A stretch of DNA of 63,912 nucleotides, filler included, from Reticulomyxa filosa (taxonomy: Eukaryota > Protista > Foraminifera), in assembly GCA_000512085.1 (NCBI GenBank). It is 24 parts of 24 records of this genome, joined end to end, with 100 filler letters (N's around TTAATTAATTAA, not from the genome) between each part and the next. Parts side by side here need not be neighbours in the genome. Positions count along the whole stretch, not along the records: positions 15,238 to 22,783 come from ASPP01002369.1; 23 more parts are not named here. The stretch is one strand, 5' to 3'. Of the stretch, positions 4,705-61,303 are shown in pieces; the stretch's first letter is position 1, and each line of letters opens with the position of its first letter. A program made the position numbers and the translations under genes. The notes under the pieces are model-generated. The model saw only the letters and a program-made list of their open reading frames with translations, was not told the DNA's origin and ran no database searches.

Positions 4705-4771
4705 GTAAAGTTTTTTTTTGTGTTGTTCGAACGTTATTAGTCCCTCTGAAAAAGAACAAAAATTGGAGTGG

Positions 4772-4811
<40 letters not shown>

Positions 4812-6630: not shown

Positions 6631-9210
6631 GTGATTCAATTGCATTAACAAAACATGTTTCGTTGTTTCTAAACTTATTTTTTTTTGTCGTGCTTCCAAC
6701 CAAATCAAATTTGGTGTCAAAGTGTTGCAACAAAGCCTTGATTTGCTGCTGCAGCAATGCAACCGTTTCTCTTTTTTTTGATGGATGGACAAGAGGCGCA
6801 ACACCGGCCCCCTTGGCACTGGGATTCTTGTGGCCTTCGATGGCCCGAATATGCTCGTAGTTCTTGACTAATTGCAAGACAGTGCCTGCGAGTTCTTTTT
6901 TGGACGTCGCAAAGAATTGCATCCAAACTTTTTTTTCGCTTTCGCTCAAAAGCGACATTATCCCTAACAAAACGTTGACACGACTGACAAAGTCGGCATC
7001 GCCACCTTTGGACTTCTTGCCCACAGTCTTGTTTGTCTTTTCTTCTTCTTTCCTTTTGCTCTTGTCGTCCGCACCTCTCATCACATTTTCCTCAAATAAT
7101 TTTTCCACTTTGATTCTAATGAGTTCGTTGCATTTATACGTCATAAGCAAATAAACAAATATATGTACATATATATATATGTACATATATTTGATTAAAA
7201 AAAACAAAACCTGGAAGACAGATCTAATCGAGATAACCGACCAACCATGGCCGGTATGATTGGCAAGAATACTTTATTTTTTTTTGGCAAAGGTGAGTTT
7301 GCTTTCCAGAACGAAGCGACGTGCTTGGCGAACCACGAGCAGCATCCGCCAATGGCGTCCAAGCGGATGGATGCTTTAGTGTCCACCACCCTTCTCACCA
7401 ACGCGTCAATCACGTGGTGGTCCACCACCGCTTCGTTGGTCAGTCCAATGTGCACCATACTCTTCACCACCACATGCCGTACATTTTCGTCAAAGTCTTT
7501 CGATCGCGTCACCAAATGTTCCAACAGCTCTTGCATGTAAGCGCCGCTTTGGTTCAGTATTAACTTTTCCAAGTGTTCGCACATCACCTTTCGCTTACCT
7601 TTTTTTTTTTTTTATTTTTTTTTTTGCAAGACAACGTTTTTCAAACAGAATGGAGAGGTACATAACATCTTCTTCTTCTTCCCCTCCTCCTCCCTCCCCC
7701 CCCCCTCCCCTCCTTATAAATATATAAACTTGAGGCTCTTTGTCGTCGAATCGTTTTAAAAATAAGGAAAAAATGGACGACCACTCTTTGTTCAATTCGA
7801 TTTTATTGCCTGGAGCGGAAAACATTTGACAAAACATTTTGACAGCGGCGACGCGTCTTTCATTGTCTTCGTCTTCCAACACGTTGTAAAAATAGGGCAG
7901 CAAGTCTGTCATGTACTCATTATCGACTTTTTGAAGCTCCGATATTAGCGACACTTGCATTTGATATCTCCTCTCTTCTCTGTCCACACCTGCTTTTTTA
8001 CCTTTGTCCTCTTCCTCTTCCTCCTTCTCCTTCTCCTTTGTTATCAATGGCGTCCATGTCTTTTTCTCCTTGTCTTCGCTTGCATTCGCATCTGCACTAG
8101 CGTTCTCATTCGTTCTTTTCGCTTCCGTTGTCTCCTCTTTCATTTCTTCGTCCAATAGCTTTTCCATTTTACGCCAACTCTTTTCATTTTCACGTCCTTT
8201 TTTTTAAAAAAAAATTTAAAAAATTGTACACGTCATCCAAATAACACACCGAAGTGAGAAAAAAAAACTAGGTATTGATAAGAGGCTCTTTCTTTTTCTC
8301 AAAAAAATATATATACAAAAAAAAAAAAGGGCTCTGACCTTCTTGCTTTGCTTTTTTAGCTTGAGTGGGGTCCTTGAGCACTTGTAGCATGTAGTCTTCG
8401 ACGGTCTTCTTCATGTCGGCGTGAGTGCGTCGTAGTATTTTACTGGCCAAGTCGTAGCGCATGGGGAACATATGCTTGTAGGGACTGCACAGGTGCAGCA
8501 ACAAGTAGCTCACCAAATCTCTGTCTACTTTGTCCTCCGATTGCTCGATTATTCCAACTATTATCGTCTGAATGTGGAACAACACCTGCTGTTCTTGCGT
8601 TGGTGATACCACTGAAAATAAACGACGAACTAATTCCATTAACTTTTTTTTTTAAAAAAATTATTTCTTAAAAAAATGTATACGTATGTGGTGTTTTCAA
8701 AAAAAAAAAAAGAAGGTACTAAACCAAAGAACGACCGTTCTTGCAATTAAACAGCAATGCAAATAATGTGTATACTGACAAGTTTTCTAGGATTCGAAAA
8801 TGCAGTTGATATGTGTCCGAATTGATGGTAGAGTCTGATTGTTGTTTGAGTCCGGTCAGCTGATGGAACATTAGTGAGAACATTTGCAGAATCATGTCTT
8901 CGTCAGCTAACGGACCGGAAGGTGCGTACAAACGACACAAATCCGCGTAACAACACCCCAACAACAATCGAATACTTTCGTCACCGTGCTTCAATAACCC
9001 ACTCAAAAATAATGATGGGATCAAATATGTTTTCAATTTCACTTTCATCTCTTCTTCTTCTTTCACCATCCGCACCAAAACTGCTGATACTTTTTCTAGT
9101 CTTGACTTCAACACTCCAGGCTTCAACGACGAATCAATGAAACCTTTGGCGGAAACTTCAACGATTTCCGATTCGGTAAGGACAGAGGAAGATTGACTCA
9201 TTTCTGCCAT
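6588..9210 (-). CDS. PDS5: Sister chromatid cohesion protein PDS5 (HEAT repeats), 3'-truncated, multi-exon
   Basis: LLKHGDESIRLLLGCCYADLCRLYAP, FRILENLS, FLKRFDDKEPQ, RSKDFDENVR motifs; introns 8724..8643 and 8338..8197 restore the frame. Confidence 0.9.
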
Positions 9211-16664: not shown

Positions 16665-19017
16665 ATGGCCGATCAATCAAATAATCAGATAACAGATGCA
16701 ACACAACAAAATGCGGAGAGCACAAATAAAAAGCAAGAGGTGGTAAAAGCCAAAAAGGAGAACAAAAATATTGACTATAAACACCAGAAAGAAGACTTTG
16801 AATTAGGGAAATTGTTGGGCGGTGGTTCTTATGCGAAAGTGGTGGAGGGCAAAGTGACAAATCCGAACAGTCCATTTTTCAACAGCGAGTTTGCCGTGAA
16901 AATAATGGACAAGCGACACATTGTAAAAAACGATAAAGTGAAATATGTCAACATTGAAAAAAAAGTGTTTTTATTGACGAATCCTCATCCGTTTGTTTGC
17001 CACATGCATTTTGCCTTCCAAGACAACTATTCTTTGTGTACGTTCTTTTTTTTTTTTTCCTTCTATATGTTTTATTATTATTATTATTTTGAATTATTGT
17101 TATGATTACATATTATTATCATCTCTTTCAAAAAAAAAAAAATTTCTATATGCAATTGACATGAGAACTTTTTCTACCGCAATATCGCAAAAAAAAAAAA
17201 AAAAAGATTTGGTGTTGGACTTATGCACGGAAGGAGAGTTATCGTATTTAATATGGAAATATATGAAGTTGCCCGAAGACTTGACACGAGTATACATGTC
17301 CGAGGTTGTCTCTGCATTGGAGCTGATGCACAAAAACGGGCTGTATCATCGCGATTTAAAGCCAGAGAATATACTGCTTCACAAAGACGGGCACATTCGA
17401 TTGACCGATTTTGGCACTGCCAAAATTGTCGATTTGAACGATGAAAAGGAAAGAGACGCTCTATTGAAGCAAGAACAAGACTCCAATCAAGATTCCAAAT
17501 TTCACAAAGAGTTTTTTTTTTTGTTTTTGCTTCCCAAAAAAAAAAAAAATCCTCCAATCTATTTCTTCACCTTCCCCCCCCCTTTTTTATTCTTACTGGT
17601 TTGTTTGTAACCTAATAATGAGGCAATCAAATAAAAATAATGCAAAAAAAAAAAAGACGCAAAGGGTCATTTGTGGGTACGGCGTTGTATGTACCTCCAG
17701 AAATGCTTGGTGAAAAGCCTTTTTCATTTGCCGGGTATGTTTTGATTTGTTATTTTTTGGGGAGGGGGGGGGAAAGGGGTCCGAAAAGTTGAAAAGGGCA
17801 CTGGGCCCCGTGCGCGGTGACATAGTTGGGACAAAGTTGTGTTTGTTGATGGAAAAACTGAAAAGAATGGACTTTTGGGCACTTGGTTGCATCATTTATC
17901 AATGTTTAGTTGGAAAAGCACCTTTCACTGGTGCCAATGAATACTTGGTGTTTAAGGCAATCGAGGGCCATGAATACGAGGTGCCTGACTTTCTCTCAAC
18001 TAATGCTACTGATATTATTGCCAAATTATTGGTATGTGCATAGAACAGAGAGAGACTGATTACGATAGATAATATGCATATGTGTACATATATGCATATA
18101 CAATACATATATATATATATGTGTATATGATATATCATATAATATATGTACATGCAACAATGGACATGTGAGAAAATTGTTTTGATGAAATGTTGTCCTC
18201 TCTTTTTCGACAATGCACAGAATCCAAATTTCAAAGACAGATTGGGAATGAAAGGCTTCGACGAGATAAAACAACACCCATTCTTTGCAGGAGTGGAATG
18301 GGAATGGGAACAAATGCAAGCCAAGCAGATACCATCACTACCGAAAACTCCTCCTAATTCCCTGCTTTGCAGTCGGCAACACGTGATGAACGCAGTGAAA
18401 GCGGGTGGGAAGATATGAGTGATTTGAAGGATGCCCAAGTCGTGTCTCCCACTGTCAATGCTATTGCCACCGCCACCACCACCTCCAGTGCGTCTGCCAA
18501 TACGCCTGCTACTGATACCAACGACACTCTTTTTGGCAAATGGTTTGTCCCATATTCCAACGTGCATGAAATACACGTATACGTTGTACAAAACATTTTT
18601 TCACACTACACTCTGTTTCTATCACATTTAGGAAAAAACTTCTCGTGAATGAAGAGACCATTGATTTTGGGAGCCAAATCGAAGTCTCAAAATGTGGGGC
18701 TTGTCTGCTGATTCTTGTGTGATGCTGATTACCAATAAAAATCGCTTTGTTCTCATTGATCACTCTAAAATGAAAATTAAATTTGACATACCTTTGTCCA
18801 CGGTCACCAAAATTATTGTTTCAGACAAACAAATTTTTACACTTGAAACAGTTTTGTTTTGTTTGCTTTGTTTTTTAACAAATGCCTTATAATACATACA
18901 ATTTGCAATGTGTTTTTTATGGAAAAACAATAGTCCAAAAAAACACACAAAATGAAAACTATTGGAGCTACTGCTCAACAGTGGTATGATATTGTTTACC
19001 CACGCTTGAAGGCCTGA
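16665..19017 (+). CDS. PDK1: 3-phosphoinositide-dependent protein kinase 1 (kinase plus PH domain)
   Basis: [65 protein letters not shown] and a C-terminal PH-like region; introns 17038-17206, 17511-17656, 17735-17865, 18032-18220 restore the frame; two 1-nt frameshifts (~18358, ~18691). Confidence 0.9.
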
Positions 19018-19829: not shown

Positions 19830-21727
19830 TTACAATTCAATAACCGATTGCTTTATCTGATGAATCCTTTCAAGTAAACTTTGAAAGTCTTTTTCTAAAG
19901 AGAGATTTTGAATTATGTCAATTTCAGTTTTAATTTTCCCTAAAATGACTTGTTGTGTTTCATTTTGATTTTTGACTTCGAGATTTTGTTTTTTATTTTT
20001 GTGGAGAGCTTCTGTTTTTCCGCGGTCACGTGAACGTGGATAATTGGAAGTGAATTGGTTTTCGTCGGTATCCTCATCTTCCATATTCCACTCCGTGGCA
20101 ATGGGATAAGATAACCGAATATTGTTTGATTGAGCCGCATTGTTAATTTCCCCTGCATCCGCATCGATATCTGTATCTGCTTCCTCTTTGTCATTCATCA
20201 AATTGGATCGCGTTTGGTTCAGTCCTTGCAACTGGATTTGAGTGTGATACCACTCAATCACTTGTCGGTGTTGGTGCACATGCAGGCATTGCCGTTTGTA
20301 ATAGCGTTCCAGCCGCGATCCAAATTCACTAAATTTGGATTCCAACTCTCGTTTGATATTTGCCAGTTCTTGTTCCAGTACTTTTTGATATTCTACTTTT
20401 TGCACTCGCATCTCTATCATAGGATTAAAAAAAAAAACTTAGTAAAGGTAGGGGAGGGAGTTATAAAACAAACAATTAAAAAAAAAAAAAAAAAAAGTGT
20501 GGTACAAGATCATGAATGTACTCAGAATAACCTTTTTCTTTGGTGACATAATCGGGAAAGTTGTACTTTTGTTCAATGGGAGTAGCAGGTGGGGTGGTAG
20601 CCGGTGGTGGAGGGACATCTAACAATGTGCCAACCTGAATAAAGGGAACCCGTTTTGCAGATTCATTATTAGGTTTGTTGGAACCAGATTGGACTGGATG
20701 CTTTTTGGCCCGCTTTGGTGATTTCTTTGTTTTTTTTTCTTGTCGTTGTCTTTGCCTGTATGTGGCGATTCATCACTGCTAGTTGTTGTGACCGCCGTTA
20801 TTGCTCCCATGTTCTCTCTGCACTCATTTAATACACATAACGTATACATACATATATGCATATAACACATATATATATATTTAAAAAATTATATTGTGCA
20901 ACAAAAAACAAACAAAGCGGCACATTATGGCATATATTTATTACATTACGTTTTTGCTTTCATTAATGTCACACATTTTGAAATACAGAAGGAAGCGAAG
21001 GGGGGGAAGGGAGAGTTTTGTTTTCAAAAAAAAAAAAAAAAGAAACCTCAGTTCAGAATCGAAAGAACGTGCAGATGAGACTTGAGAAGAAGGATTTGTA
21101 ATGGACACAGCAGTTGTTGTGGTAGCAACGTTGCTATTGTCATGAGCCACTTTATGAATGGACGCATTGGTGGTAGTGTGGTGTACGTTGAACGTGTTGT
21201 GCTTGTTAAGATTGGGACGTGCTACTGTTGCTGCTCCCCCTCCTCCCCCCTCCTCCTCCTCCAATTTGTGTGTTTGTGTTGATCATGTGCACCATTGACG
21301 TTGGAAATTCTATTTGATGCTCGTTCGAAGTCGGCGTCGTGGTGCTGTCGGCGATGATCGGAATTCGCTGCTTTCGATCATCGATTCTTATAGTTTGGGT
21401 GTTGCTCTTCACCTTTGTCTTTTCTTCATGCTCCGAGTTACCTGACACATTCAACACCGAGTACATTTGAGGGCTTGCTTTCGCCAAGTAATGGATCCTC
21501 GCTCGCTCCAAACGATCCAATAAATGCGGGATGTTGCCTATTGGTGTCCACGTTTTCACTGTTATGCCATCCCACACATACGTTCGGTCGAACAAGTCTC
21601 CTGAACAATATCCACTTATCATCTCTTCAATTGTACAAGGACCACGGCTAGTCCCAAACTTATCCACGTAGTGCCATGATTCTGTCATTGCTTTCACTGT
21701 TTCTAACTCCTTTTCCGTCAACTGCAA
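19830..21727 (-). CDS. GYF_2 (DUF4339-like) domain protein with low-complexity middle and coiled coil; start uncertain (ATG 21688 likely)
   Basis: WHYVDKFGTSRGPCTIEEM...TYVWDGITVKTWTPIGNIPHL; further same-strand exons separated by GT-AG introns. Confidence 0.65.
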
Positions 21728-22163: not shown

Positions 22164-22783
22164 ATGCATCTTTCCCATCTTCCAGAACCCAGTCGAGCAA
22201 TAATTTTGACAGAATTTTGTGAACGTTGTGCGTATTATGGGATTTCTTCTTCGTTACAGTTATTTTTACGAAGCTGTTTAAAAACAGGTAGTGCAGAAGC
22301 AGTAGTTACAGTAAATATGTTTTCTGCAATATGTTATTTATCTCCATTACATATTGCAGATCATTATACGGAAAATATGAAGAATTTTATTTTCATTATT
22401 TGTATATGCATTTAGTATTGCAATAGTAACAATTCTTGCATTTATATATGAATAACTTTATCTTAATCGTTTTTTATTTGTTGGATTTGAGATTATTTTT
22501 TTATATTATTGATATTTTTGGGTTTTGGTTATGTGTATATAAATATATAATTATGTATTATTATTATTAAAAAAAATGAACAAATAAATAAATAAAATAA
22601 AAAGGGACGGGTGGAATAAAAGGGAATGTATTTCCATTTGGCAGTGATCAATTGGGCGAACATTCACTTTCATATAATGATCAATTCAAATTATTTTCTA
22701 ATTGGTTTTATTTTAGTATCAATATTGGTGCATTATTAACATATACATTTATTGCTTATTTATGTCAAGATATTGCATTTGGT
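22164..22783 (+). CDS. POT/PTR oligopeptide transporter, 5' part, possibly decaying
   Basis: EFCERCAYYG (ExxERxxYYG), GTGGIKGNVFPFGSDQ, NWFYFSINIGALL; frame disruption near 22350-22420. Confidence 0.8.
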
Positions 22784-22939
22784 NNNNNNNNNNNNNNNNN
22801 NNNNNNNNNNNNNNNNNNNNNNNNNNNTTAATTAATTAANNNNNNNNNNNNNNNNNNNNNNNNNNNNNNNNNNNNNNNNNNNNGTTGAACCAAACACAAC
22901 TATGATAACACAAGGTACGTACAATTTTTTTTTTTTTTT

Positions 22940-24050
22940 TGGTAATGACCTTGGAAATTTTTCATACATCCTGACTTCCATTATGACAGCTGATCCACCA
23001 ATCATCGAGATCGATTTCCGCCATTACTTCTCCGCAACTAGGGTTGGCCACGCTGATTCATTTTACAACAACCTGATCCAATCCAACACGGTCGCCGACT
23101 TGATGTTTTTATTTTTTGGGTCGATCTTACCATCATCATTGTCGGCTACTCCGACATCATTGCAAAGTGCGAACGCATCCAAAGGCGTTGGACAAATATT
23201 TTCCGCGATATTGCGCTTCGCACAGAAATAGCCTCTTGAGTCACGGCAGTCAAAGTACATCTTCATATCTACGCTGCCGTTGTTCACATCAATGGCCACT
23301 CATCCAATTCGATGCCAACACTTCTTCATCTTTGAAATGTATTGGACCAACAATCTAGCTATCTATTTGATTTGATGAAATATAACAATTAATTGTATAC
23401 GTACATATGTACATATATATTGTTTTTCAAAACTACAGGCGTCCTTTCAGTTCGAATTCGATCTCCAACCAATATCTGAATATCTTGTACGCTACGAAAT
23501 CAGCAGCGAATCAAGTTGAATGCATTGAGCGCGAGCCACTTTTTTGCATTAAAGTACTGGACTCCGCTGTTGCAATTTCACTAAAGTTCCAATCCAATCC
23601 CGATCACATTCTCAAACTTTTCTCCACTTTCTCTGGAGTAGACCGTCCCTTTCCAAACTACTGTGCATTTCCCTTCGCTCGTGCGGACTTAGCTTGGTCT
23701 ATTCTATAACATTGCTGACTTGCTTTGGCTGGTGAATCTCAACTTTACAACACATGCATCTCCATTTTCCAATCCGGCTATATAATCAAATTGAACTAAA
23801 CATCCATTTTTTCAACGCCAAATTTACTACTCTTGATATCACAAATTTGGACTTACTTTGACAGGCTTGACTATCCTTTTACAGTCTTTTCCGTCATGAG
23901 CCACTATGTCCATTTACCAATTCCAAGCCAATCAAGTCATCGCATTTGCCAAAGAAGGGTCCAACGAACTTGACCTCGCCGATTCTGCCACGTGAACTTT
24001 GATTGTGGCTTTTTGCTTCCGTCGAAGCCGACGATGCGCAATAGCGCATT
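22940..24050 (-). pseudogene. Tandem CAP-Gly domain pseudogene
   Basis: GEVKFVGP...IGLEL..HDG; VGDRI; IVGPIHF...VGIELDEW..NNGSVDMKMYFDCRDSRGYF (~23360-23210); QVGDRV...HNGS; frameshifts and stops. Confidence 0.7.
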
Positions 24051-24968: not shown

Positions 24969-26006
24969 TTGTCTGCGCAAAGCATGGAAGAAATTGGCAG
25001 GAGTGGTACAATTGAGAATTTGCCAGTTGATGTCCTGCAGTTGTTCGAGATGGTTAAGCGTCAATTCGTCGGGATTGTCGTTGCAACATTGCAGGAATCT
25101 CTCCATGCGTGCGCTGGAATGTTCCGGACCACCTGACTCATAGCCATGTGGCAACAGACACACGAGCCCGGACGATCGAAGCCACTTGGATTCGGCGCTC
25201 GAAATGAACTGATCAAAGACAACTTGCGCCCCATTGGCAAAGTCTCCAAACTGCGCCTCCCAAATCACCAACGCGTTGGGATGCTCCGTTGAATATCCAT
25301 ATTCAAATCCAAGCACGGCCAGTTCACTCAAGTTGCTGTTCGATACATGGAACTCGCCCGTGGCACCTGGGATGTGACAAAGCGGCCGATATTGCGGTCT
25401 GTGTTGTGCAGTCACATCTTTTTGCTCGTGGATCACCGCATGTCGATGCGAAAACGTGCCTCTTTCCGTGTCTTGTCCAGACAATCGTACATGATATCCT
25501 TCTAACAACAATGATCCAAACGCCAGCGCTTCACCAGTGCCCCTATATACATATATACATAAATATATATATGTATATATGCATATATGTATATTTATTT
25601 ATTTATTTGTATTGTCCATTTCCCAATAATATAATATCAATATTAAAAAAAGTAATGTCAAAATGACAAACCAATCAATGCCGTCTCCTTCTTCAATGGA
25701 TTGCTTTTTTTTCTCCAAAATTTTTTTCAGGTTGCGATGGACGGTGAAGCCTTCAGGCAGAGCAGTCAAGGCAATGCCGATTTTTTTGGCCACGTCTTCG
25801 GTGATGGCAGTGCTCATTTCCGTGGCGGTGCGCTGATGTCCGGACATCTTGGTCCAGTTTTGTCCGAGCCAGTCCGGGTTTCCTTCCTTATACGTGCTCG
25901 ACTTTTCATACGACTCGTTCAGAATGCCAACAATGCGGTCTTCCATTCCCTTGATTTCCTCGGGAGTTATCACTTTCTCCTCGATTAATTTTTTCTTGTA
26001 TCTTTC
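24969..26006 (-). CDS. OGDH: 2-oxoglutarate dehydrogenase E1 component, internal fragment
   Basis: IDW|[85 protein letters not shown]; spliceosomal introns show it is eukaryotic. Confidence 0.95.
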
Positions 26007-27330: not shown

Positions 27331-27530
27331 CGCGGCATGGTAGCAGCTTGCCGCGCGGCCAAGGTTGGCCGCAGGGGCAGGTGGTGGGTTACCACCCCAG
27401 GTTGTGGCGCAGGTAGGCGTCGGTATCGCCGTAAAAGCGCTTCATCACGATGTAGTGCTCGGTGTCCTGATAGGCAACCGGCTGGATGCCGTCGCGTTGC
27501 AGTTGCAGCAGGCTGGCGTCGGGGCAGACG
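27331..27530 (-). pseudogene. Bacterial high-GC 3' remnant of a predicted ATPase (COG3910-like)
   Basis: CPDASLLQLQRDGIQR/VAYQDTEHYIVMKRFYGDTDAYLRH resembles the recalled C-terminus of that family; 5' part is replaced by AT-rich DNA. Confidence 0.55.
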
Positions 27531-27646
27531 TGTTCAGATCATCCCTAGCACGTGATTTGATAAAAATCAAAGTAATTCATACTAATCTATTACAAGTATA
27601 CAACTCGCATTACAATTAAAACTTATCAATGCAAAATGATTAACGA

Positions 27647-27652
27647 AAGGAG
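27647..27652 (+). promoter_or_regulatory. Shine-Dalgarno site
   Basis: AAGGAG 5 nt before ATG 27658. Confidence 0.75.
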
Positions 27653-27657
27653 TTTTT

Positions 27658-28440
27658 ATGAAAAAAAGACAAATCGTAATTGTACTTACACTAATAGTAA
27701 GTGGACATGCCAGTGCACTTGAATTAAAAAACTACAGCTTTGGTATAGAAAAATATAATGAAAACTATCTAGACTATGAAAGCGGCGAAAAATTCATGCA
27801 GGAAAATAGCATGATGACCAGTATTATTGGAGAAGCCAATCTATATTTTAATGAAGATGCTACAATATGGGTATCAGGTCGTTATGCCAAAGGCAAAAGT
27901 GACTATACTGGTGCATACACCAATGGAGTTTATGGCGACCTTAAAGTAAAAGGAATTAATAGAGAGTCTTGGGAAATACAAACTATTTTGAAACATGAAT
28001 TCAATATAGAATCATTGGGAAGTTTTACCATTGGCCCCGGGCTTGGTTTGCGTCACTTAAAAGACTCTTTAGATCAAGCATCCTCAGGTGGATACACTCG
28101 TAAAAATGATCTATCATATGCAATAATTAGTATTAGCAAAGAATTTGACAACAAAGGTATTTTTAAAATCACACCATCTGTCGCATACAAAAAAATAATA
28201 AAAGGAAAGCAACATTCTGCAATTGAGGAAGGAGTAGATAATATACAAAAAAACGGCTATGGTTTTGACATAAATTTAGCCATAGAGAAAAAGATCTATC
28301 AGCGATCACTCTATGTCACACCATTTTACCGATTTTGGAAAATAAAAAGATCAGATCCAGCAATCTTTCGTTCCAGCACGGTTTTTGAGCCAGAAAATAC
28401 GACAAAAGAGGTAGGCTTAAAAATTGGAATCCAATTTTAA
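27658..28440 (+). CDS. Bacterial outer-membrane beta-barrel protein (260 aa)
   Basis: Sec signal MKKRQIVIVLTLIVSGHASA, alternating beta-strand pattern, C-terminal EPENTTKEVGLKIGIQF beta-signal ending in Phe; SD present; no introns. Confidence 0.85.
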   Translation: MKKRQIVIVLTLIVSGHASALELKNYSFGIEKYNENYLDYESGEKFMQENSMMTSIIGEANLYFNEDATIWVSGRYAKGKSDYTGAYTNGVYGDLKVKGINRESWEIQTILKHEFNIESLGSFTIGPGLGLRHLKDSLDQASSGGYTRKNDLSYAIISISKEFDNKGIFKITPSVAYKKIIKGKQHSAIEEGVDNIQKNGYGFDINLAIEKKIYQRSLYVTPFYRFWKIKRSDPAIFRSSTVFEPENTTKEVGLKIGIQF

Positions 28441-28890
28441 ATAAATTTACCTGAAATCTATTTAAATACACATATTGCGGATTTGTTGGGCTTTGTTGCA
28501 CCAATCAGGGCTTGCGTCCGTTCTGTAGAATGACTACATGAGCAAGCTCTCCCCTCCCAGGCAAGCAGGGTGGGCAAAGCGCAGCGNNNNNNNNNNNNNN
28601 NNNNNNNNNNNNNNNNNNNNNNNNNNNNNNTTAATTAATTAANNNNNNNNNNNNNNNNNNNNNNNNNNNNNNNNNNNNNNNNNNNNCGAGTTTTTCAGGA
28701 CAAATTTTAATCTAAATTGATTAACTATAACGTTTTTCTTTAAAATTTTGTGATGTTCTATTTCTTAGAACGAAGTGCTCTTTTAACTTGAAAGACCTGA
28801 GTTTGTGCAGGTAGAGGGCAAAAAGAAGTGCAAGCTGATGATGAAGCGAGAGAGTAGTCCGACGCTTGACACGCCCCCACTGCAACCCAT

Positions 28891-29619
28891 CTAAAAAAAA
28901 GGACCAAAATAGGTCAATAAAATATGAAGTTGTTTCAAAAAAATTGTCAAAATATTTAAATCCTCCTTCCAGATGAACTTTGAAAGTTCCTTCATGTTCC
29001 CATATCTCGCCACCAAATTTTTCAGGTTCGAATGCGGTAACAATGTCTGTGATTGTTTAATCTTGAACAGGAATCCTTCAACCCCACTCTGCGTTCGTGT
29101 ACTTTCAACTTGGTGGAGCACGATCTTTTCAAATGACTGGGCTGTGTAAATATCGTTTCGTGTGCTTGTCTATTCCATTCTCCGTCTTTATTCATTCCAA
29201 ATCTTGTATACCAATACAATTCAAGAGTAGGAAATTGGAAAATAACTGTGTCATAAGCATTACACCAAGAATTCGACACATTGTAATCCTTTTCAATATC
29301 AATCCATTTGCTACTTCTCAAATTCCATGTCTCAATCTTTTGTCGTTCAATCCGTAGTGAAGACCACGTGGTTTTTATATTGAACGTGATTTGTAGATGA
29401 TCTGACTGCACATCAGTTACTAATCAATTGAAAAATATACAGACATAATGTAATATCAATGCTTAATGTCTCATTGTTTTTCATGAACGTACGGTCAAAT
29501 GACAATGTATTGATAATATGTAATCCATTGTATACAGTGAAATCAAGGATACAATTACAGTTGCGGTCAAAAGTGTTTAGATGTTGCGAATTTTCATTCG
29601 TTTTTTTACTTAAATGCAA
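28891..29619 (-). mobile_element. Non-LTR retrotransposon APE-endonuclease relic
   Basis: ILDFTVYNGLHIIN...TF...SIDITLC...SDHLQITFNI...WNLRSSKW matches the endonuclease C-terminus; frameshifted. Confidence 0.7.
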
Positions 29620-29679
29620 ATATCTCTATAATGAAAAAAGATAATTTTCTGAAAATTTATATGAGTTATATCTACATTA

Positions 29680-29905
29680 GATGTGAAAGAAAGTTGACAC
29701 GTTTACTAGTATCTGGTAAATATTCTACTGCCACTGGAATGAAAGAAATTGAAAATGATAGTCCTTTCCCTCCTATATCTGTTTCAACTTGCAAAAGAAC
29801 TCTTTATCGTGCTGGATTTCGTGGAAGATCAAAAATAAAAAAACCATATCTTAAGAAAATACATCGTCAAAAACGTTTAATATTGCTATCAATTATAAAA
29901 ATTGG
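29680..29905 (+). mobile_element. Tc1-like transposase fragment (second HTH region)
   Basis: ERKLTRLLVSGKYSTA...ISVSTCKRTLYRAGFRGRSKIKKPYLKKIHRQKRL. Confidence 0.8.
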
Positions 29906-30005
29906 NNNNNNNNNNNNNNNNNNNNNNNNNNNNNNNNNNNNNNNNNNNNTTAATTAATTAANNNNNNNNNNNNNNNNNNNNNNNNNNNNNNNNNNNNNNN
30001 NNNNN

Positions 30006-36907: not shown

Positions 36908-37645
36908 ATGGTCAATTTTATCTTTGTAATTGACACATGCTATTTGATGAATCAAAAAGTGCCAGAGCAAGGCCTGAGTTTGTTGGAAATAGTGAAAACT
37001 GGTATCTATCATTGTGTGCAAAGACGAAAGAACGAGCAACTTCCATGTCGTTATCTACTCGTGACCAATGGGTCACCACCAGACTGTGTGAAAGTTAGGC
37101 TGCAAAAAAAGGAAAAAGGGGTTTGAGTAGCCTCGAGAAAGTAAAAATAGCCAAAGCAATAACAATAATAAAAACAATGACAATAACAAAAAAGAGTGGA
37201 TGGGAAGAGAGCCCTGACGATTTTTTAAAAAACGTGATTAATCTAAAGGCGAATGATTTGCCAAATATCGGCTCGGCACTAGTGAATGTATTTCACCTGC
37301 TGAAGTCTCATCGTGACTATCAAACAAGCTATGGGAAGGTATGCACATATATTTTTTTTAAAAAAAAAGGGAGGGGGGGGGGGTAGGGTGAGGTGGTGGA
37401 AGGAAGATCACAATTAATTTTTTTTTTAAAAAAAAAGGGGTGGCAACCATGGAAAATTCCGACGAATTGTGTAATCGTGTATTCGTACAGCAGTATGCAA
37501 ATGGAATGGAAGGAGAATGTCTACAATTGTGAGAACGAAGAGGAGATAAGAATGAAATTGAGACAATACGAAGAGATTAAAACCAACTATTCATCAATAC
37601 AATCGACCTCAACAACAAATATAGCATCACCAATATCAACATTAA

Positions 37646-39290: not shown

Positions 39291-40437
39291 TCAACAGATT
39301 TTGTTTTAAGCGGTCAAAAATCGGTATGCAGTTCAACGTATACGTATGTTAAAAAAAAAAATAGCACCGTCGCTGTAGCGTTTCTGTCACTGGTCGCAAT
39401 TGTGGTGCTATATCTTTCTTTTTGAGGATCTTTTTTTTTGTTGAGTCTGCTTTGGAAAATCTTAACTTCAAAAGTAATTGCAAACTTTATCGACGATCGC
39501 TAAGTTTACTTCTTTTCACTGTCAAGAATTCTATGGGAGATTCCTTTTTTTGCATTGTATTTTTTTGATAAAGATCACATCTTTAAAAAAAGATGTGTTT
39601 TTGACAAGTTATTGTATACGTTGTTTCTCCACTTAGTGACTGACTACTTTGTCATCATCTACGTAAAAAAAAAAAACTAAATTATGTTTATTAATTCGAT
39701 TCCACAGGAATGTTCAGAAATTAGAATTTTATTTAAATATCTTTGTTGCAATGGTAACAAGTCCCTTTTTTTTTTATAGGTGCTGCTGAAGATTACATGA
39801 TAAATATCATTGGATTGATTGTGTATACATTTACATGTGGTTTTTCTCTGTTCTACAGACATTTTTCCCACTGATGACAGCACCTCTTTTTCGAATGCTG
39901 TTGTTTTGGGTACACGCTGATTATTTTCTTTTTCAGCAACTGTTGCACGTTGCAGAGGAGAGCATTGGTGAAGGAATTCTCAAAAGCGAGTTCCATGTTG
40001 TAGAAGTTTGCTTTGTTAGGTTATTTAAAGAGAAGAGCCAAAACCACGTTTGTAATGTCCAAGAGAATTTTTCTAAAAAGGGAAAACTTTTCTCTTCAAT
40101 AGAAAAATCATTACTCAAGGAAAAATAATTAATCATTAAAAAAAAACAATTTTAATTTTCAATTTTTTGTAATTAATCCTTTTTTTGGAATCACAATTGT
40201 AGAAATACAATAAAAAATTGTAACAATTCTTTTTTCAAATTTTTTTGTAAAAAATGTGAAAATACTCAAAAAAATTACAAATTTACATCTTTTTTAATTA
40301 ATATTTATAAGTTGCCCATTTATNNNNNNNNNNNNNNNNNNNNNNNNNNNNNNNNNNNNNNNNNNNNTTAATTAATTAANNNNNNNNNNNNNNNNNNNNN
40401 NNNNNNNNNNNNNNNNNNNNNNNAAAAAAAAAAAAAG

Positions 40438-42417
40438 GTATGTTGCGGTGTTGAGTTGTGGGAATCCCAATGAAAATCATGGGGCGACATTGAGCGTGCA
40501 AGAGACAAATCAGTTTCGACATTTGCAACACATAAGTTTGAAGTTGAAAAGTGCGAACGAGGAAATGTTGAAAAAATATTTGGGCAATTCGTTGCTGCGC
40601 TTTAAAGCAGAAACCCTGCAGCTGCACAAAGAACTGTCCGAATGCAAGCAGCATTTGCAGATTGCTCAATTCGACCACTCCAAAGCCCAAGACGCGATCC
40701 AACAACTCAAAACGACCATGGAGCATTCCATTTTCGAACTCAAGTATGGGCCCCTCTTTTTTCCATCCCACGCACGTACATATACATATATATATATATA
40801 TATGTATATGCATATATGTTCAAAGAGAGGAGGGGGGAATGAAAAAAAAGAAATGGACACACAAAAGAAATGAACGAACTTCGGTCGGAACAAAGCAAAA
40901 AAGAAGAAGAGATAAGAAGAGAACAGCAGAAGAAAAGAGAAGAAGTGGAAGAAGGCCTGAAATTGGAATATAAAAATTTGGAAGAGAAATACAACGCACT
41001 GTACGAAAAATATCAATTGTTGTTAGTAGAAAAAACAAATTGGAGACAAAGCATTTGGCGTTGTGTGACGAAGTCAAACAAAAAAGCGAGTGGAACAAAA
41101 ACCACACGGAAATGATTAAAACATTACGAAACGAAATTAAAAACTTGGAAACGACAAAGTTTGAACAAGACAAACATATCCAATCCCTATCGTTGCAAAT
41201 CACTGTCTTGCAACAACAAGTTAAAGATAAAGATGAATTATTTCTTAATCAAGAATCATTCGTCAAAGCTGCACAAGAGCAAAAGGTTTGAGTTTATATT
41301 ATATGTATGTACATATAGATATATACTGTGTTTTGTGCTTTTTTTTAATGAATAGCATGCCAATGATGAACAAATTGACAAAATGAAAAAGGCATTGGAA
41401 AAAAGTGAGAAAAAAGTTCGTGAGTGTATTAAAGAAATTCACAAGGGGAATAATATAATAACTCGCTTGCAAAATGAAATTCGCAATACAAAGTCAGAGA
41501 ACAAAGTAATGGAACAACAACTGATTGTTGCCACGAATGACTTAAAAACAGAGTCTGCTAAAACTCAAAGTTTGAAACAAGAGCTATGTAATAAACAAAG
41601 CCACATTGACGAATTACGCAAAGAGATTGAATTGTTGAAAAACATGCTGCAAAGTTGTAAAGATAAATTAGAACAGTCCCACAAAGCCATTGAGTCCAAT
41701 CAAAAAGTTATCTCGTATTTGAACAAACAGATCAATGACAAACAACACTTTGCGCCGACGACCGCTTTTCCTCTTTCTCAAACCAAAACTTTCTCCAATT
41801 TCAATTTTGCCAACACTTGCTCATCTTTATCTTCGTCTCCTTCTCCCTCTATTCCGGCTACGACATATAGTGATCCTTTGGTGTCTTGGAAATCTCAGTT
41901 TCCTATTGTTCCCCCCAAACTGACCACCACTGGTAACTGTCTTCAAACAAGCTATGTTATTGTGTTTTGTTCTATCTTTTAATTCCTGATTAAATCTTGT
42001 TGAATAGAACCAATTCGTCCTTTATTCGCTGCTGGTTCTGCGTTTCGTGGTACCACCGAAACCAATTATACACCTACTCCAAGTTTTCCAATACCGTCTT
42101 CCTATGCACAAACTTGCCTGACAACTACCTCACCCAATCCCAATTTGATCAAAAACTTGGGAGGTAAATATTCATTTTTAGTGTTTTTGTCCAAATGTTT
42201 TGTGCATATACTCGGTACTTTTTAAAGCAATTGTGCTCAAAATGACCAAATAGTTCCTGATCCAATTTCGAGTGAGAACATCGGAAAAAATCTCAAAGAC
42301 ATCGAACGCATCAACAATGGGGCTGAAACGGGGGACATCAACAATCCCCACATAAACGGCAGCAAAAATATCAACAGTGAAGAGCTAAATAAACAGCCCA
42401 GTTCATACTTTCCTTAG
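40438..42417 (+). CDS. SAS6: Centriole cartwheel protein SAS-6, 5'-truncated
   Basis: ATLSVQETNQFRHLQHISLKLKSANEEMLKKYL (end of head domain); coiled coil with EIHKGNNIITRLQ and SNQKVISYLNKQIND; C-terminal PSSYFP-stop; several introns; 1-nt frameshift at ~41040. Confidence 0.9.
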
Positions 42418-54805: not shown

Positions 54806-56462
54806 CCCCCCCTTTTGCACTATCTATTGACACTGGAAATGCTGAGCTCACAGCAAGCTCGAGTTGCAGCCTATGCAATCCCTAAGTGTCTGTCGTAATG
54901 CTACTCATTACAACGTTCACGAATATACCAGAGAACGACAAACGAAAATGAAAATAACTGCGTACAAACAAGTGATTCGCATGCTTACCAGCAACCCTAC
55001 GCCCAGGCATTTGCGTATGGTGCTGTACGAATGGAAGTGCAAGAACCTGCACCGAGATGTCCGCATTGTGATTGATCGGAGGTGTTTAAGATCTTGGCGG
55101 CAGATCGTCCTTTGGAGTCACTCGTGAACACAGCTTGGAAAATCTTGAAGTCGTGTGTGAATGATCCGAACACCAATTTGAACGACGAAATCATGATTGC
55201 ACTCATCGGTCGGTTCAACAAGTCGAGTTATAGTTTCAAGGAGATTAGTTTCAAACCAAGAATCTTGGAGCACTTGGACACGGTTTTCTTCAATTGCGTT
55301 CAAAAAGGAATATCGAGACCGATTACGTGACAAATTGCTGTTGGTGTTGGTAAAGCGAATTTATGAAATCGATTTCACAAAAGAGAATCAGGAAGAAACA
55401 AAGAATGACAAGGCCACAGGAGAAAATGAAAAGAAGATAAAAAAGATTTTGCCAACGAAAAGCATAAAAGAAAGATTCGGAATTCCTTTGTTTGCAAATG
55501 AGTCTTTGTAAGACACAGTATAAACTCACCAACATTGCTTTCAAAGACTCATTTGCAAACAAAGGAATTCCGAATCTTTGTGCTTGGAGCGAATGTGTTT
55601 GGTATCAAAGAGCTGAAACGATGCTTATCGACTTCTTCTTGCATTGGGTATCGAGAGTGACCGAAGTATCAACGAATGAAATTCTCGAGCGATCCTCCAT
55701 TTGAATATCCTCCAACGCATTTTGAATCACCAATTGGCATTGCCCAGCGCCGATGATAAATCGGAGGAATCGCAAAGTGCCAAAGACAATGCAATGTTAA
55801 TTACCGTGTTCCACCACCAATTTTTTAGCTACAATTCAATCAACAAATTGGCAAAAAAACGTATTTGAATCAAATACTCAGCGGCAAAGGACAAGCTATT
55901 ATCGATGCGCTGTTGTATTTTGCGCAATGTTCATGTCAAGAGTTTGGTGTGTATCAAGAATCACATGTGCTCAATTCCATTCGAACGTTAATGGAATATT
56001 TGGTGAGAGACGTTATGATATCACAACATCCAAAGATATTTGGAAACAATTGGAGCTTGTTTATTTCCACCTGGTTCACAACAAATGGTGGATGGGGAAA
56101 GTCAGTCGAAATCACATTTGTTTCGAATTTGTTGGCAAGCGTGCAAGATTGACAAGCAATAAGAGCCTCATCGAACTTGTATTCGGTTGTCTTGCAACTG
56201 TGAAACAATCGCATCACATCTTCCGACTCGTATTCACAGACGGACTTGCACACAAATGGTTTAAAGTGTTTGAGCAGTTTTAATGTTCGATTTGTCGCAA
56301 CATTCGCACAAAGTTGTGCTGCTTAAAAATATGTTTTAATGTCGCCGTGATTTGGGGTTTGATTGAAAGAGTAGCAAACTTGCCCGAGTTTGTAAAGCCA
56401 GATCGGCAAGCAAACTCAAAAAAAGAAAGTCCCATTGTCACCACAACCGGGACAATTCCCTT
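54806..56462 (+). pseudogene. Frameshifted and stop-interrupted large helical protein, unidentified
   Basis: Overlapping protein-like ORFs in changing frames with in-frame stops and no intron signature. Confidence 0.55.
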
Positions 56463-58052: not shown

Positions 58053-58702
58053 TTATGAACAGGTTTTTCTAGCCTCCCAAAAACCCTTACCATAAGTAAC
58101 CAAAAGTTCTTCGCCTTGTCGAATAGGTTTATTAAGTGCAAATACTCCGATCCTTACATGACCGCTTTTTTTTGAGAAATAATTTTCAAATTTGACATTT
58201 GGCCTTATTGCAATGTTTCGATAATCGTTAATAAATCGGGCCACATTACCATATTTTTCGGCATCACAAGATAGCCCATCAACAAACTGAATGATGTAAT
58301 CACTTGTTTGTGATTCTGTCTCGTGCCTTTGGACCAATCCTTTGTAGTCACAAATATGGAAATTACTCTGTATTTTTTTCGTTGCAAACAATCCAAAACC
58401 GCCAAACGCTGGATGTTTGGGATCCGTTATTTTTTCAATTCTTACATATTTACGCTCATTTGAATTATCACATGATGTCAATATTGGGGTATATGTTTTT
58501 GCTGACTGCTCGTTCATTAATATATCATTTATTGTCTTATCGTTCCAGATATAATCCTCAATGTATTCAACATTTTTGGGCCAGTTCTTTTTTTTAAGGA
58601 AAAAATTTATTTATCAAGTTGAATATGAATAAAAATATCGAAAAAACAAAAATGCCTCACTTTTGGAACAGAAAACGAGGAAGACACTAACATTTTCGCC
58701 AT
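58053..58702 (-). CDS. Small SET-domain protein
   Basis: ATG 58702 plus intron 58660..58587 gives VPKNWPKNVEYI; HPAFGGFGLFATKKI, DYKG, GNVARFINDYR, GEELLVTYGKGFW. Confidence 0.88.
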
Positions 58703-59045: not shown

Positions 59046-61303
59046 ATGAACGGAACATACGAATACGGAGTATTTCTTTCTCATTTCTGCAATATTGACT
59101 TATTTCGACAAGGGTAGTAATAACTAACTAAAAATTAATATCGAATCAATATTTATAACTTCACGTTTTGTGCGTTTGTGTTCATGCAAAGAACGATTTA
59201 ACCAACACTAAAAAAACACTTTGGATTTTTGCCTTGCGATTGGGGAACATAACATAAAATAAAAAAAAAAGGATATATTTTTTTCGAATACGAATTTACG
59301 AGCAGCAAGGATCGCATGACAGGAAATCCAACGGATCTTCGGCGTCAAGTCCAAAAGATGGAAACAACATAGCGAAAAGTAATGGGATAGGAACAGGGGG
59401 TAGCAATAGTAATAGTAACCTAAGTGGCACGGGCGGTTCGACGATAAATGGGGACAACGTAAACAGCTTGAAGAGGTACGCACTGCCCTATCGCACAATG
59501 GCAGGAAAGGTACGTAATAGTGACTATTTGCTGACCGTAGTCCGATCGCAATGCCTATTTGGGACATATGGACGGACCCAACAATGCTTACTGTTCCTCC
59601 TTCTTTCGTGTTCAATACCAAGAACAACGCATTTCTTTGAATGAAGGATGTTTGTTTCGAATTGACTTACCCTACTCACCAGTTCATTTTAATACATCCT
59701 TTTTTTTTTTTTTTTTTTTGTTTTGTAAATACAAACATTTTCCAAATTTTTTTGAAATAAATTTTAAAAAAATGTACGCAAAAAAAAAAATGGTTCAAAG
59801 TTGACCCCACTGTATGTTGACATCGAATTGGTATTTTCCGAATTGCACGCCAATGAGTTGATTGTTTGTTGCTCTCTGCTCTTTTTTTTTTTTTTGGCGA
59901 TGATTGATTTGTTGTTTATGTTCCCCTCTTTGAACGTTTTTTTTTTGTAATCTGATACAAATACATATATATATATGTATATGTATATGTATATGTGTAT
60001 GTACATGTATATGTGTGCATGTGATACTGCTTTTTGTTAGCTACAACACCAAAGGGATCCCCGATTTGTCAGAGTTCAGCATTGTCGACACTACGACGCT
60101 GTGTGTGGAGGACTGCCAAAACGGTGTTCACGGCATATATCCGGTCACATTTTCTTCGGCACATTTCTGCTTGTTGCATACCATGGTTCACGGCCAACTT
60201 ATCAATTTCAAGTTTATCCCGCCCGCACCGCTGCGAACGTCCTCCTCTCTTTCTGATCCCGATGCCGACTCGGAATCAGTTTCGACATTTTGCCGTTGTC
60301 ACTATTTTTGTTGTTTGTTTCTCTCTATCCCTTCTTTTTTTTTTTTTTTTTTTTGCTTTTATTTATTTTTTTTCCGATGGTCATCTAATATACATATGTA
60401 CATATATGTATATGCAATATCATATATATATGCATATGCTCTTTCGAATGGCATTGTTATCCGCAAAACAACAAATGTCAACGATTCAAATGAAAACAAT
60501 AAAAGACAAATGGTAAAGGCAGTGGACATCATTTGTCAAAGACAAGCAACGAAGCGCAGAGATCAGACGAGTCCGCAAGTCAATTGAAAGGCCTGAAGAA
60601 GAGGTGTGTGTGTGTGGTACGTTTGCTTGTTTGGTGTTGGAGAGTGTCAGGTAATATAGACTGTGTTGCAACACATGACATAATGAGAAAGATGGAAAGA
60701 CACCGGCAAGGAGGAAAGAAGCCCAAGTGAGCCCATTCTAGGCATTTCATCGTTTGCAGAGGTACTGTTTCACAATGCAATTGATGTGCCATTGTCGCCA
60801 AAACAATGGGAAAGAGTAAATGATCATCACGTCTTTTATGTCTCCTCCTTAATGAAGTCCTATGAAACATTACAATCAGTTGACTTTTTTTTTTTTGTTT
60901 TTACTTTTAACAAAAAAAAAAAAAAGAGAGAGTAAGAGTATATGTGTACATATATGTATGTTATATTGTATTAAATCGTACATTGATTAGAAATGATGCA
61001 ATCAAACAAACAAACACCATTTATCAGTTAGTGGGCAAATATGTGATGGAGTATTTAGATCCCGCCTCAGTGACGTACTTGGGCGCGGATTTCGACGAGC
61101 TCTTCCCAGTTCCCGACATTGACTTGCCGCAAAAATTAAGATACATTGCGCCGGATGCTGCGGACAAAAAAGAGGTAGCAGACAAGGTGATGTCCTCGCA
61201 AAGGGCCCTCGTTCATGTCAACGACATCAATGCTCATCACGGCGCCGAGGCCAATCCAGGATCACTCGTCTCGCCACTGTTTTGTGTTTTGTCATACTAC
61301 AAA

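What the first reader, a model, noticed from the sequence alone, without database searches (positions are those of the whole stretch)
17038..17656. Introns with U-tract donors and A-tract acceptors: candidate structure-bridged splicing system
Seen: boundaries were fixed by restoring conserved protein frames. PDK1 i1 (17038-17206) is GTACGTTC-T13...A17-G; PDK1 i2 (17511-17656) is G-T11...A12-G; PDS5 i1 (8724..8643) has T13...A10-G; PDS5 i2 (8338..8197) has T12...A8-G; the SET intron (58660..58587) has T5/T6...A8-G; the 4705 intron has T9...A37 before truncation. A-tract acceptors also occur in SAS-6 (~40437), FAM135 (~59271) and POT (~22604). Established: the 3' AG is normally preceded by a pyrimidine tract bound by U2AF2, and complementary AC/GU repeats at fish intron ends can bypass U2AF2. 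Inference: U:A pairing could juxtapose the splice sites here, a homopolymer version of that mechanism. Some introns (e.g. PDK1 i4) look canonical.
Basis: partly seen in the sequence, partly recalled or inferred. Interest (0 to 1): 0.78.

Follow-up and report, generated by a model that had tools for sequence, protein, structure and literature searches.

The report
A-run splice acceptors in foraminiferan introns
Many predicted introns of this single-celled foraminiferan start with a run of T and, mostly in a gene's first introns, end in a run of A where most eukaryotes have a pyrimidine tract; the two runs likely act separately rather than by pairing, which would make this an unusual splice-acceptor style rather than a new structure-based splicing system.

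Summary
The organism is the foraminiferan Reticulomyxa filosa (identical named protein). No RNA could be laid on the DNA; junctions rest on protein homology and reading frame.

In 28 complete introns I curated, polarity beats chance: 8 end in A8+G (0.7 expected) and 11 have T8+ near the donor (5.1 expected). A pyrimidine tract is mostly absent and AAG is the commonest acceptor.

U:A bridging is not supported as a general mechanism. Both tracts co-occur in 5 of 28 (3.1 expected, p=0.20), native ends pair no better than swapped ends (p=0.72), and 1 of 5 cited introns folds end-to-end with exon flanks (3 of 5 without). Against this, 13 homology-anchored introns do co-vary (rho 0.73, p=0.005), and introns with the longest tracts are lost at contig ends.

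New: A-run acceptors fade along genes (PDK1 17,12,4,1,1,1; within-gene p=0.0015, post hoc).

Best reading: ordinary U2-type introns with a donor-side U-tract and an A-rich, AG-free acceptor. Ten paper searches found no description; the species' genome paper was unavailable. Three look-ups found no earlier scan note.

The parts
17038..17206 (+). PDK1 intron 1: GT, T13 at 17046-17058, internal A13 at 17130, A17 at 17189-17205, G
   Evidence: Pinned to the codon by P0001; about 14 bp predicted between first and last 35 nt
17511..17656 (+). PDK1 intron 2: G-T11, a competing A14 at 17536, A12-G acceptor
   Evidence: Acceptor pinned before RKGSFVGT, donor by frame; folds locally with flanks, end-to-end without
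17735..17865 (+). PDK1 intron 3: T-rich start, purine-rich GAAAAG acceptor
   Evidence: P0001 alignment
18032..18220 (+). PDK1 intron 4: pyrimidine stretch and CAG; strong predicted non-homopolymer end-to-end stem
   Evidence: P0001 alignment; duplex -20.7 kcal/mol, best of 27 partners
18543..18631 (+). PDK1 intron 5: pyrimidine-rich TAG acceptor
   Evidence: Open frame and by-eye match to P0001
18851..18933 (+). PDK1 intron 6: T-rich donor side, AACAATAG acceptor
   Evidence: P0001 alignment across the junction
8643..8724 (-). PDS5 intron 1: T13 near donor, T7-A10-G acceptor
   Evidence: Pfam PF20168 123|124; public model P0003
8197..8338 (-). PDS5 intron 2: T12 near donor, T9-A8-G acceptor
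   Evidence: Pfam on both exons and frame; read through by P0003
7594..7729 (-). PDS5 intron 3: no T-run at donor; A11/A14 followed by GGTAAG
   Evidence: Pfam 300|301; acceptor 7594 chosen by frame over 7599
7116..7210 (-). PDS5 intron 4: T8 near donor, no A-run acceptor
   Evidence: Frame only
58587..58660 (-). SET-domain gene intron 1: T5/T6, A8-G
   Evidence: Frame only; SET domain downstream
37094..37194 (+). INTS6-like intron 1: A-rich donor side, A6-G acceptor (counter-example to pairing)
   Evidence: Next exon starts at residue 64 of INTS6 7cun_F, weak E=0.61
37339..37437 (+).
   Evidence: Frame; continuation of the INTS6 match recalled; PDB search of the next exon gave no INTS6 hit
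59114..59271 (+). FAM135 intron 1: A-rich donor side, A10-G acceptor
   Evidence: Frame; N-terminal motif recalled; gene identity from PF12394 downstream
59682..59800 (+). FAM135 intron: T20 near donor, A11 ending 10 nt before the AG
   Evidence: Frame
59857..60040 (+). FAM135 intron: T14 near donor, pyrimidine-rich TAG acceptor, no A-run
   Evidence: Frame; next exon matches PF12394
40424..40437 (+). SAS-6 acceptor A13-G at a contig start (donor missing)
   Evidence: Exon matches SAS-6
40744..40850 (+). SAS-6 intron: C/T-rich start, G/A-rich end, A8-G; strong predicted end-to-end stem
   Evidence: Frame; duplex -20.5 kcal/mol
22426..22604 (+). POT-family intron: A-rich acceptor (A5-G), no donor T-run; donor uncertain
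   Evidence: Next exon matches NRT1.1/SLC15 from its first residues; no open frame across the junction
25543..25671 (-). 2-oxoglutarate dehydrogenase E1 intron: T7, (TA)n-AG acceptor
   Evidence: PDB 2xta numbering on both exons
20818..21046 (-). GYF-domain gene intron A: T16 near donor, no A-run
   Evidence: Frame only
20412..20505 (-). GYF-domain gene intron B: T19 near donor, T11 near acceptor, no A-run
   Evidence: Frame only
4705..4811 (+). Truncated putative intron: GTAAAG-T9 ... A37 at contig end
   Evidence: Sequence only; acceptor not seen

Best explanation
These predicted GT-AG introns carry a T-rich stretch after the donor and an A-rich, AG-poor stretch before the acceptor, and are likely removed by the ordinary major spliceosome with the two ends read independently. 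Shown: the polarity, the scarcity of a pyrimidine tract, AAG as commonest acceptor, depletion of AG in the last 30 nt, and concentration of A-run acceptors in the first introns of genes. Inferred: the donor-side U-run is the widespread element bound by TIA-1/Nam8-type U1 helpers; the acceptor is chosen as the first AG after an AG-free run-up, with reduced need for U2AF2; this relaxation is greatest in cap-proximal introns; and the long runs grew by replication slippage from A-rich acceptors.
For: Polarity beyond chance. Pyrimidine fraction at -20..-4 is 0.41 vs 0.55 in intron interiors (n=27). Acceptors: AAG 13, TAG 10, CAG 4, GAG 1 of 28. AG in the last 30 nt: 11 seen vs 33.7 expected, while GA is 26, the usual exclusion zone. 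Ends vary independently in the full census: T-run vs abutting A-run rho 0.21, p=0.29, n=28; 5 both vs 3.1 expected. Native ends are no better partners than swapped ones (duplex p=0.16, chimera p=0.72; mean rank 14.1 vs 14). The abutting A-run falls with intron order within genes (p=0.0015, 23 introns in 6 genes), while donor T-run, interior skew and longest A anywhere do not. Pyrimidine tracts 15-25 nt after the donor occur in 20-40% of introns across 22 eukaryotes (PMC2766253, passages).
Against: Homology-anchored introns co-vary (rho 0.73, n=13, p=0.005), and this survives control for intron order (partial rho 0.64, n=12, p=0.035). Introns with the longest tracts are cut by contig ends and missing from the census. 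The predicted link between weak donors and T-runs vanished once overlapping positions were excluded (rho -0.24, p=0.21, n=30; -0.50 with overlap). No TIA-1, U2AF or SF1 gene could be inspected. The same T-after/A-before skew occurs at stop and start codons, and G follows A8+ as often on the antisense strand (14 of 25) as on the sense strand (12 of 21), so part of the pattern may not be splicing-related. The intron-order effect is post hoc, one of nine features tested. Fifteen of 28 junctions rest on frame alone.
Confidence: 0.5

Rival explanations
1. The T...A order is a DNA-level or mutational feature of non-coding DNA next to coding DNA (slippage-grown runs, or poly-dT/poly-dA pairs that keep introns nucleosome-poor); splicing merely tolerates it.
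For: T-then-A is strand-symmetric. The same skew flanks genes: -0.34 after 8 stops, +0.20 before 8 starts, p=0.006. Runs of 13+ A are C-led (18 of 28) and G-followed (17 of 27) on either strand. Outside introns, T6+ then A6+ within 3 nt outnumbers the reverse 11 to 1. In yeast poly-T/poly-A gives the most robust nucleosome-free region (PMC4212969); Dictyostelium uses such tracts at gene ends (PMC3371697).
Against: A-runs sit flush against the acceptor G far more than rotation predicts (8 vs 0.7). No run of 8+ lies within 30 nt of the 8 stops or (for A) the 8 starts, though this contrast is weak (0 of 8 vs 11 of 28, p=0.08). The fall with intron order is specific to the acceptor-abutting run. 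At 100-300 nt spacing the T-then-A bias outside introns is slight or absent.
Confidence: 0.25
2. A subclass of mostly cap-proximal introns is bridged by RNA pairing between its ends (U-run with A-run, or other complementary ends), easing or bypassing U2AF2 as AC/GU repeats do in fish.
For: Five of 28 introns carry both runs, all first or second introns. Anchored-subset co-variation; within-intron rho 0.75 vs cross-exon 0.47 in the same three genes. PDK1 i1 and INTS6 i2 fold end-to-end (14-18 bp). PDK1 i4 and SAS-6 i2 have -20.7 and -20.5 kcal/mol end stems, against 3 of 702 swapped pairs at that level (p about 0.01 at the best of 16 settings).
Against: Full census shows no excess co-occurrence (p=0.20) and no native advantage over chimeras (p=0.72). 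U:A duplexes are weak (-4.6 to -9.8 kcal/mol for the four cited PDK1/PDS5 introns) and nearer A- or T-runs compete. Cited introns are not more stable than shuffles (z -1.57 to +0.27). A helix reaching position -2 would cover the acceptor region (inference). The two-stem tail result is not robust across thresholds.
Confidence: 0.2
3. The pattern is largely an artefact of misplaced junctions, homopolymer mis-calls and choice of examples.
For: No transcript evidence was available. Frameshifts at runs occur in several genes. Fifteen of 28 junctions are frame-only and chosen by me.
Against: PDK1 i1 and PDS5 i1 are pinned to the codon by independent proteins or profiles. Polarity holds in 20 uncited introns. 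Length errors cannot create base identity or position.
Confidence: 0.05

Closest known systems
(AC)m-(GT)n structure-bridged introns of fish (Lin et al. 2016, PMC4691745; parts 1-4 of 7 read, supplements not seen)
   Same: Complementary simple repeats at opposite intron ends and a weak or missing pyrimidine tract.
   Different: [quoted passage not shown] Here co-occurrence is not significant in the full set, the cited introns are not more stable than shuffles, and U:A pairs are weak and unspecific.
Donor-proximal U-rich tracts bound by TIA-1/TIAR, Nam8, UBP1/RBP45 (Gal-Mark et al. 2009, PMC2766253; passages)
   Same: T-rich stretch centred about 10-25 nt after the donor in roughly 40% of introns (11 of 28 with T8+).
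   Different: Here they are long pure homopolymers; the inverse relation to donor strength was not shown; no homologue could be checked, and that paper found none in its two protozoa.
Introns without a terminal polyT tail in Dictyostelium, Entamoeba, Ustilago, fungi (Irimia and Roy 2008, PMC2483917; passages)
   Same: PolyT displaced from the acceptor (peak 15-40 nt upstream in amoebozoans), like the T7-10/A8-10/G acceptors of PDS5 i1, PDS5 i2 and INTS6 i2.
   Different: No A-homopolymer flush with the AG and no intron-order effect appear in the passages read; the species that lack a tract there have a strong fixed branch point, which is not evident here.
Poly-dT/poly-dA nucleosome turnstile of yeast promoters (PMC4212969, part 1 of 2) and gene-end tracts of Dictyostelium (PMC3371697, passages)
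   Same: Strand-symmetric T-then-A order at the edges of non-coding DNA.
   Different: Described at promoters and transcript ends, not registered to splice sites; the word intron does not occur in the Dictyostelium paper's main text.

Membership tests
U2-type spliceosomal intron | GT...AG termini at positions that restore the protein | tested here: met
   Pinned by homology for PDK1 i1, i3, i4, PDS5 i1, OGDH i2; for the others GT-AG was a selection criterion
U2-type spliceosomal intron | AG exclusion zone before the acceptor | tested here: met
   11 AG vs 33.7 expected in the last 30 nt of 27 introns; 62 vs 107 elsewhere in them
U2-type spliceosomal intron | Polypyrimidine tract next to the AG | tested here: not met
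   Mean pyrimidine fraction 0.41 at -20..-4, below the interior 0.55; present in a minority such as PDK1 i4 and i5
U2-type spliceosomal intron | Branch-point consensus | tested here: inconclusive
   A loose YTRAY match within 60 nt in 13 of 28, at scattered distances, no null computed
U2-type spliceosomal intron | Removal seen in transcripts | not testable with these tools
   No run could be laid on the window
Structure-bridged introns (Lin 2016 type) | Complementary repeats at both ends | tested here: met
   5 of 28 introns have T8+ near the donor and A8+G
Structure-bridged introns (Lin 2016 type) | Co-occurrence above independence, across introns more than across exons | tested here: inconclusive
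   Full set p=0.20; anchored subset rho 0.73 p=0.005; within 0.75 vs cross-exon 0.47 in three genes; cross-exon -0.09 over 16 pairs
Structure-bridged introns (Lin 2016 type) | Native intron more stable than shuffles and folded end-to-end | tested here: not met
   Cited five: z -0.92, -1.52, -1.57, -0.79, +0.27; bridging of 5 bp or more in 1 of 5 with flanks at 37 C, 2 of 5 at 22 C, 3 of 5 without flanks
Structure-bridged introns (Lin 2016 type) | U2AF2 independence and rescue by compensatory mutation | not testable with these tools
   Needs experiments
TIA-1/Nam8-type donor-proximal U-tract | U-rich tract within about 25 nt of the donor | tested here: met
   T fraction +7..+26 is 0.54 vs 0.40 null; 11 vs 5.1
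TIA-1/Nam8-type donor-proximal U-tract | Inverse relation to donor strength | tested here: inconclusive
   rho -0.50 with overlapping positions, -0.24, p=0.21 without
TIA-1/Nam8-type donor-proximal U-tract | TIA-1/Nam8 homologue encoded | not testable with these tools
   No whole genome held
Introner (transposon-derived) introns | Shared sequence among introns | tested here: not met
   All-against-all blastn of 28 introns: the 10 filtered hits and the first 12 of 217 unfiltered hits shown are homopolymer, (TA)n or T-rich matches
Poly-dT/poly-dA nucleosome turnstile | T-then-A order at non-coding edges generally | tested here: inconclusive
   Skew present at gene ends but long runs are not
Poly-dT/poly-dA nucleosome turnstile | Nucleosome depletion between the tracts | not testable with these tools
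   Needs MNase-seq

The most novel reading that the evidence does not exclude
Reticulomyxa has a second, cap-proximal class of spliceosomal introns in which an A-homopolymer replaces the pyrimidine tract and pairs with a donor-side U-run (other introns use other complementary ends), giving U2AF2-independent, structure-guided splicing that arose in Rhizaria independently of fish.
Probability: 0.18. Interest if true: 0.78.

Novelty: new variant of a known kind. Interest (0 to 1): 0.45.

Why it matters
A run of A is about the least expected sequence before a 3' AG: pyrimidines are enriched there in all eight species surveyed in PMC10946897 (section 3.6), and one A-to-G change in the run would make a premature AG. 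A lineage where 8 of 28 acceptors are A8+G, mostly in first and second introns, would be a natural test of how the 3' site is found without a pyrimidine tract and whether U2AF2 has changed or become dispensable. It also matters for annotation: the public PDS5 model reads through intron 2 into Phe/Lys runs and stops, so such introns are likely under-annotated in this species.

Tried and rejected
No whole genome held, so splicing factors could not be inspected. Sequencing-run search: no RNA holder listed; this is no evidence either way. Metagenome scan with PDK1 exon 2: 14 loci, all distant kinases (24-35% to P0001), none with more than 3 runs of 8+; not used. Searches covered a FAM135 exon in the wrong frame by my mistake; their results (none; four repeat proteins P0004-P0007) are void, so the FAM135 junctions lack homologue support. 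Atlas search of another FAM135 exon: no usable hit. PDB searches of INTS6-like exons 1 and 3 gave no INTS6 hit. Rfam: 0 matches in the window. Introner origin rejected. Weak-donor compensation looked significant but was largely circular. Dropping the seven cited introns removes co-occurrence (1 of 21 with both), but that subset is biased against it, so I rely on the full 28. Left out of the census: eight introns cut by contig ends, two FAM135 introns whose ends I could not place, and genes too frameshifted to model (contig 1-1664, CAP-Gly gene 22884-24050). The species' genome paper could not be read. Three look-ups in earlier scan notes returned nothing relevant.

Full report
Setting. The window is 24 short segments joined by 23 identical N-linkers, so each is treated as a separate contig. 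PDK1 exon 1 finds an Ammonia (foraminiferan) transcriptome protein, P0001, at 62%. PDS5 exon 1 is identical to a protein named Reticulomyxa filosa (P0003).

The observation. Every cited coordinate and run is present. PDK1 exons 1-5 spliced at the cited sites give an open frame 60% identical to P0001 over 339 residues; intron 1 is pinned to the codon. PDS5 intron 1 lies between Pfam positions 123 and 124 and is used by P0003, which however reads through intron 2. Weaker cases: SET and FAM135 i1 are frame-only; the 4705 A37 ends at a contig break; POT 22604 is A-rich rather than a tract and has no open frame across it.

Census. From six-frame scans, translations and PDB matches I curated 28 complete introns (31-238 nt, median 113). 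Thirteen have homology support on at least one side and 15 rest on frame. Left out: eight introns cut by contig ends, two FAM135 introns I could not place, and heavily frameshifted genes. Since 14 of 46 contig ends abut a run of 8 or more (6% background), the longest-tract introns are under-counted.

Polarity is real. AT skew is -0.29 in the first 30 nt and +0.14 in the last 30 (paired p=0.0007, 22 of 28 in that direction); by decile it runs from -0.37 to +0.37. Eight of 28 end in A8+G against 0.70 under rotation, and 11 of 28 have T8+ near the donor against 5.1. In 20 uncited introns both enrichments persist (p=0.003 and 0.0003), though the longest A-run does not exceed the longest T-run at the 3' end in the 21 uncited (p=0.71). 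Pyrimidines at -20..-4 average 0.41, below the interior 0.55. Acceptors are AAG 13, TAG 10, CAG 4, GAG 1; donors GTT 13, GTA 11, GTC 2, GTG 2. AG is depleted before the acceptor (11 vs 33.7).

Do the ends pair? Lin et al. (PMC4691745) defined bridging by co-occurrence across introns, stability over shuffles and rescue by mutation. In the full census both runs occur in 5 introns against 3.1 expected (p=0.20), with rho 0.21 (p=0.29). Six introns have a donor T8+ and no A-run acceptor (PDS5 i4, three FAM135, two GYF-gene); three have A8+G without T8+ (FAM135 i1, SAS-6 i2, SET). Native ends are not better partners than swapped ones: duplex p=0.16, and bridging in 9 of 27 native introns vs 43% of chimeras, p=0.72. 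With 25-nt flanks only PDK1 i1 of the five cited complete introns folds end-to-end at 37 C, SET joining at 22 C; without flanks PDK1 i1, i2 and SET do. None of the five is below z -1.65. Eleven of 28 introns are, many of them carrying self-complementary (TA)n repeats.

Results in the other direction. The 13 anchored introns co-vary (rho 0.73, p=0.005). In the 12 introns of PDK1, PDS5 and INTS6, rho is 0.75 within introns against 0.47 across exons, and 0.64 after removing intron order (p=0.035). PDK1 i4 and SAS-6 i2 have strong non-homopolymer end stems (-20.7, -20.5 kcal/mol; 3 of 702 swapped pairs reach this; p about 0.01 at the best of 16 settings, mostly not significant at the others). A bridged minority is therefore not excluded.

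Intron order. The A-run flush with the AG shrinks along genes: PDK1 17,12,4,1,1,1; PDS5 10,8,2,1; SAS-6 8,1,1,1 (preceded by a truncated A13); FAM135 10,1,3,1,1; INTS6-like 6,9; GYF 1,1. Within-gene permutation gives p=0.0015 (23 introns), about 0.014 after nine features; donor T-run, interior skew and longest A anywhere show no trend.

DNA-level control. T-then-A reads the same on both strands. The same skew flanks genes (-0.34 after 8 stops, +0.20 before 8 starts, p=0.006), and G follows A8+ on the antisense strand of introns (14 of 25) as often as on the sense strand (12 of 21), against 39 of 113 elsewhere (which also used ten approximate introns). Yeast and Dictyostelium use such tracts for chromatin and gene ends. 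But long runs are not found at these gene ends (0 of 8 vs 11 of 28, p=0.08), and registration to the acceptor G is exact.

Mechanism. I favour (0.5) ordinary major-spliceosome introns with independent ends. The donor-side U-run matches the widespread TIA-1/Nam8-type element in position (PMC2766253), although its expected link to weak donors was not shown. The acceptor is likely the first AG after an AG-free, A-rich run-up, with relaxed U2AF2 demand in cap-proximal introns. The protein side is entirely inferred. Rivals: DNA-level or neutral polarity 0.25, a bridged subclass 0.2, artefact 0.05.

Novelty. Ten full-text searches returned no description of A-run acceptors or T/A-polar introns in foraminifera. 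Seen: PMC4691745 parts 1-4 of 7; PMC4212969 part 1 of 2; PMC10946897 abstract and section 3.6; passages of PMC3079666, PMC11347168, PMC4758236, PMC3371697, PMC2766253, PMC3033335, PMC2483917, PMC6053224 and PMC13746701; no supplements. The species' genome paper (PMID 24332546) was not held and could already describe this; Lin's supplementary table of complementary k-mers was not seen. Displaced or missing pyrimidine tracts are known in amoebozoans and fungi (PMC2483917), and donor-side U-tracts are common, so I file this as a new variant of a known kind, interest 0.45.

Noticed in passing
window 16665 (+), 9210 (-), 36908 (+): Three of eight examined start codons are directly preceded by AG (PDK1, PDS5, INTS6-like), as a 5'-UTR intron or trans-splice acceptor would give. 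PMC6053224 says spliced-leader trans-splicing was not found in this species.
   Followed up: partly
window 18032-18220 and 40744-40850: Two introns have strong predicted non-homopolymer end-to-end stems (about -20.5 kcal/mol) enclosing (TA)n hairpins; in PDK1 i4 the stem brings GT and AG within a few bases.
   Followed up: partly
window 8271-8338 (-): The public PDS5 model P0003 reads through intron 2 into Phe/Lys runs and ends at 338 aa, while Pfam matches continue in later exons.
   Followed up: yes
window 59510-59540: A possible 31-nt intron in FAM135 with a CTGAC branch-like motif 10 nt from the end, unlike the other introns; frame-only.
   Followed up: no
window 27331-28586: Segment that looks bacterial: GC-rich ends and an intronless 266-aa ORF (27640-28437) with no Pfam hit; possible contaminant or symbiont DNA.
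   Followed up: no
window 29541-29906: Tc1/mariner-type transposase HTH fragment (PF01498, E 3e-7, just under the cut-off).
   Followed up: no
window 55326-55604: A short stretch encoding RFGIPLFANESL occurs on both strands about 100 nt apart, an inverted duplication.
   Followed up: no
window 40424-42417: A SAS-6 centriole protein gene in an organism recalled as having no observed flagellate stage.
   Followed up: no
window 7640-7715 (-), 17762-17778, 37369-37390: G-rich runs (G9-G11, GGGAGGGG) occur in the 5' half of several introns, with C-runs in others (17574-17582); possible G-quadruplex or G-triplet enhancers.
   Followed up: no
whole window: A-runs of 13 or more are mostly written C-A(n)-G on either strand (C before in 18 of 28, G after in 17 of 27).
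   Followed up: partly
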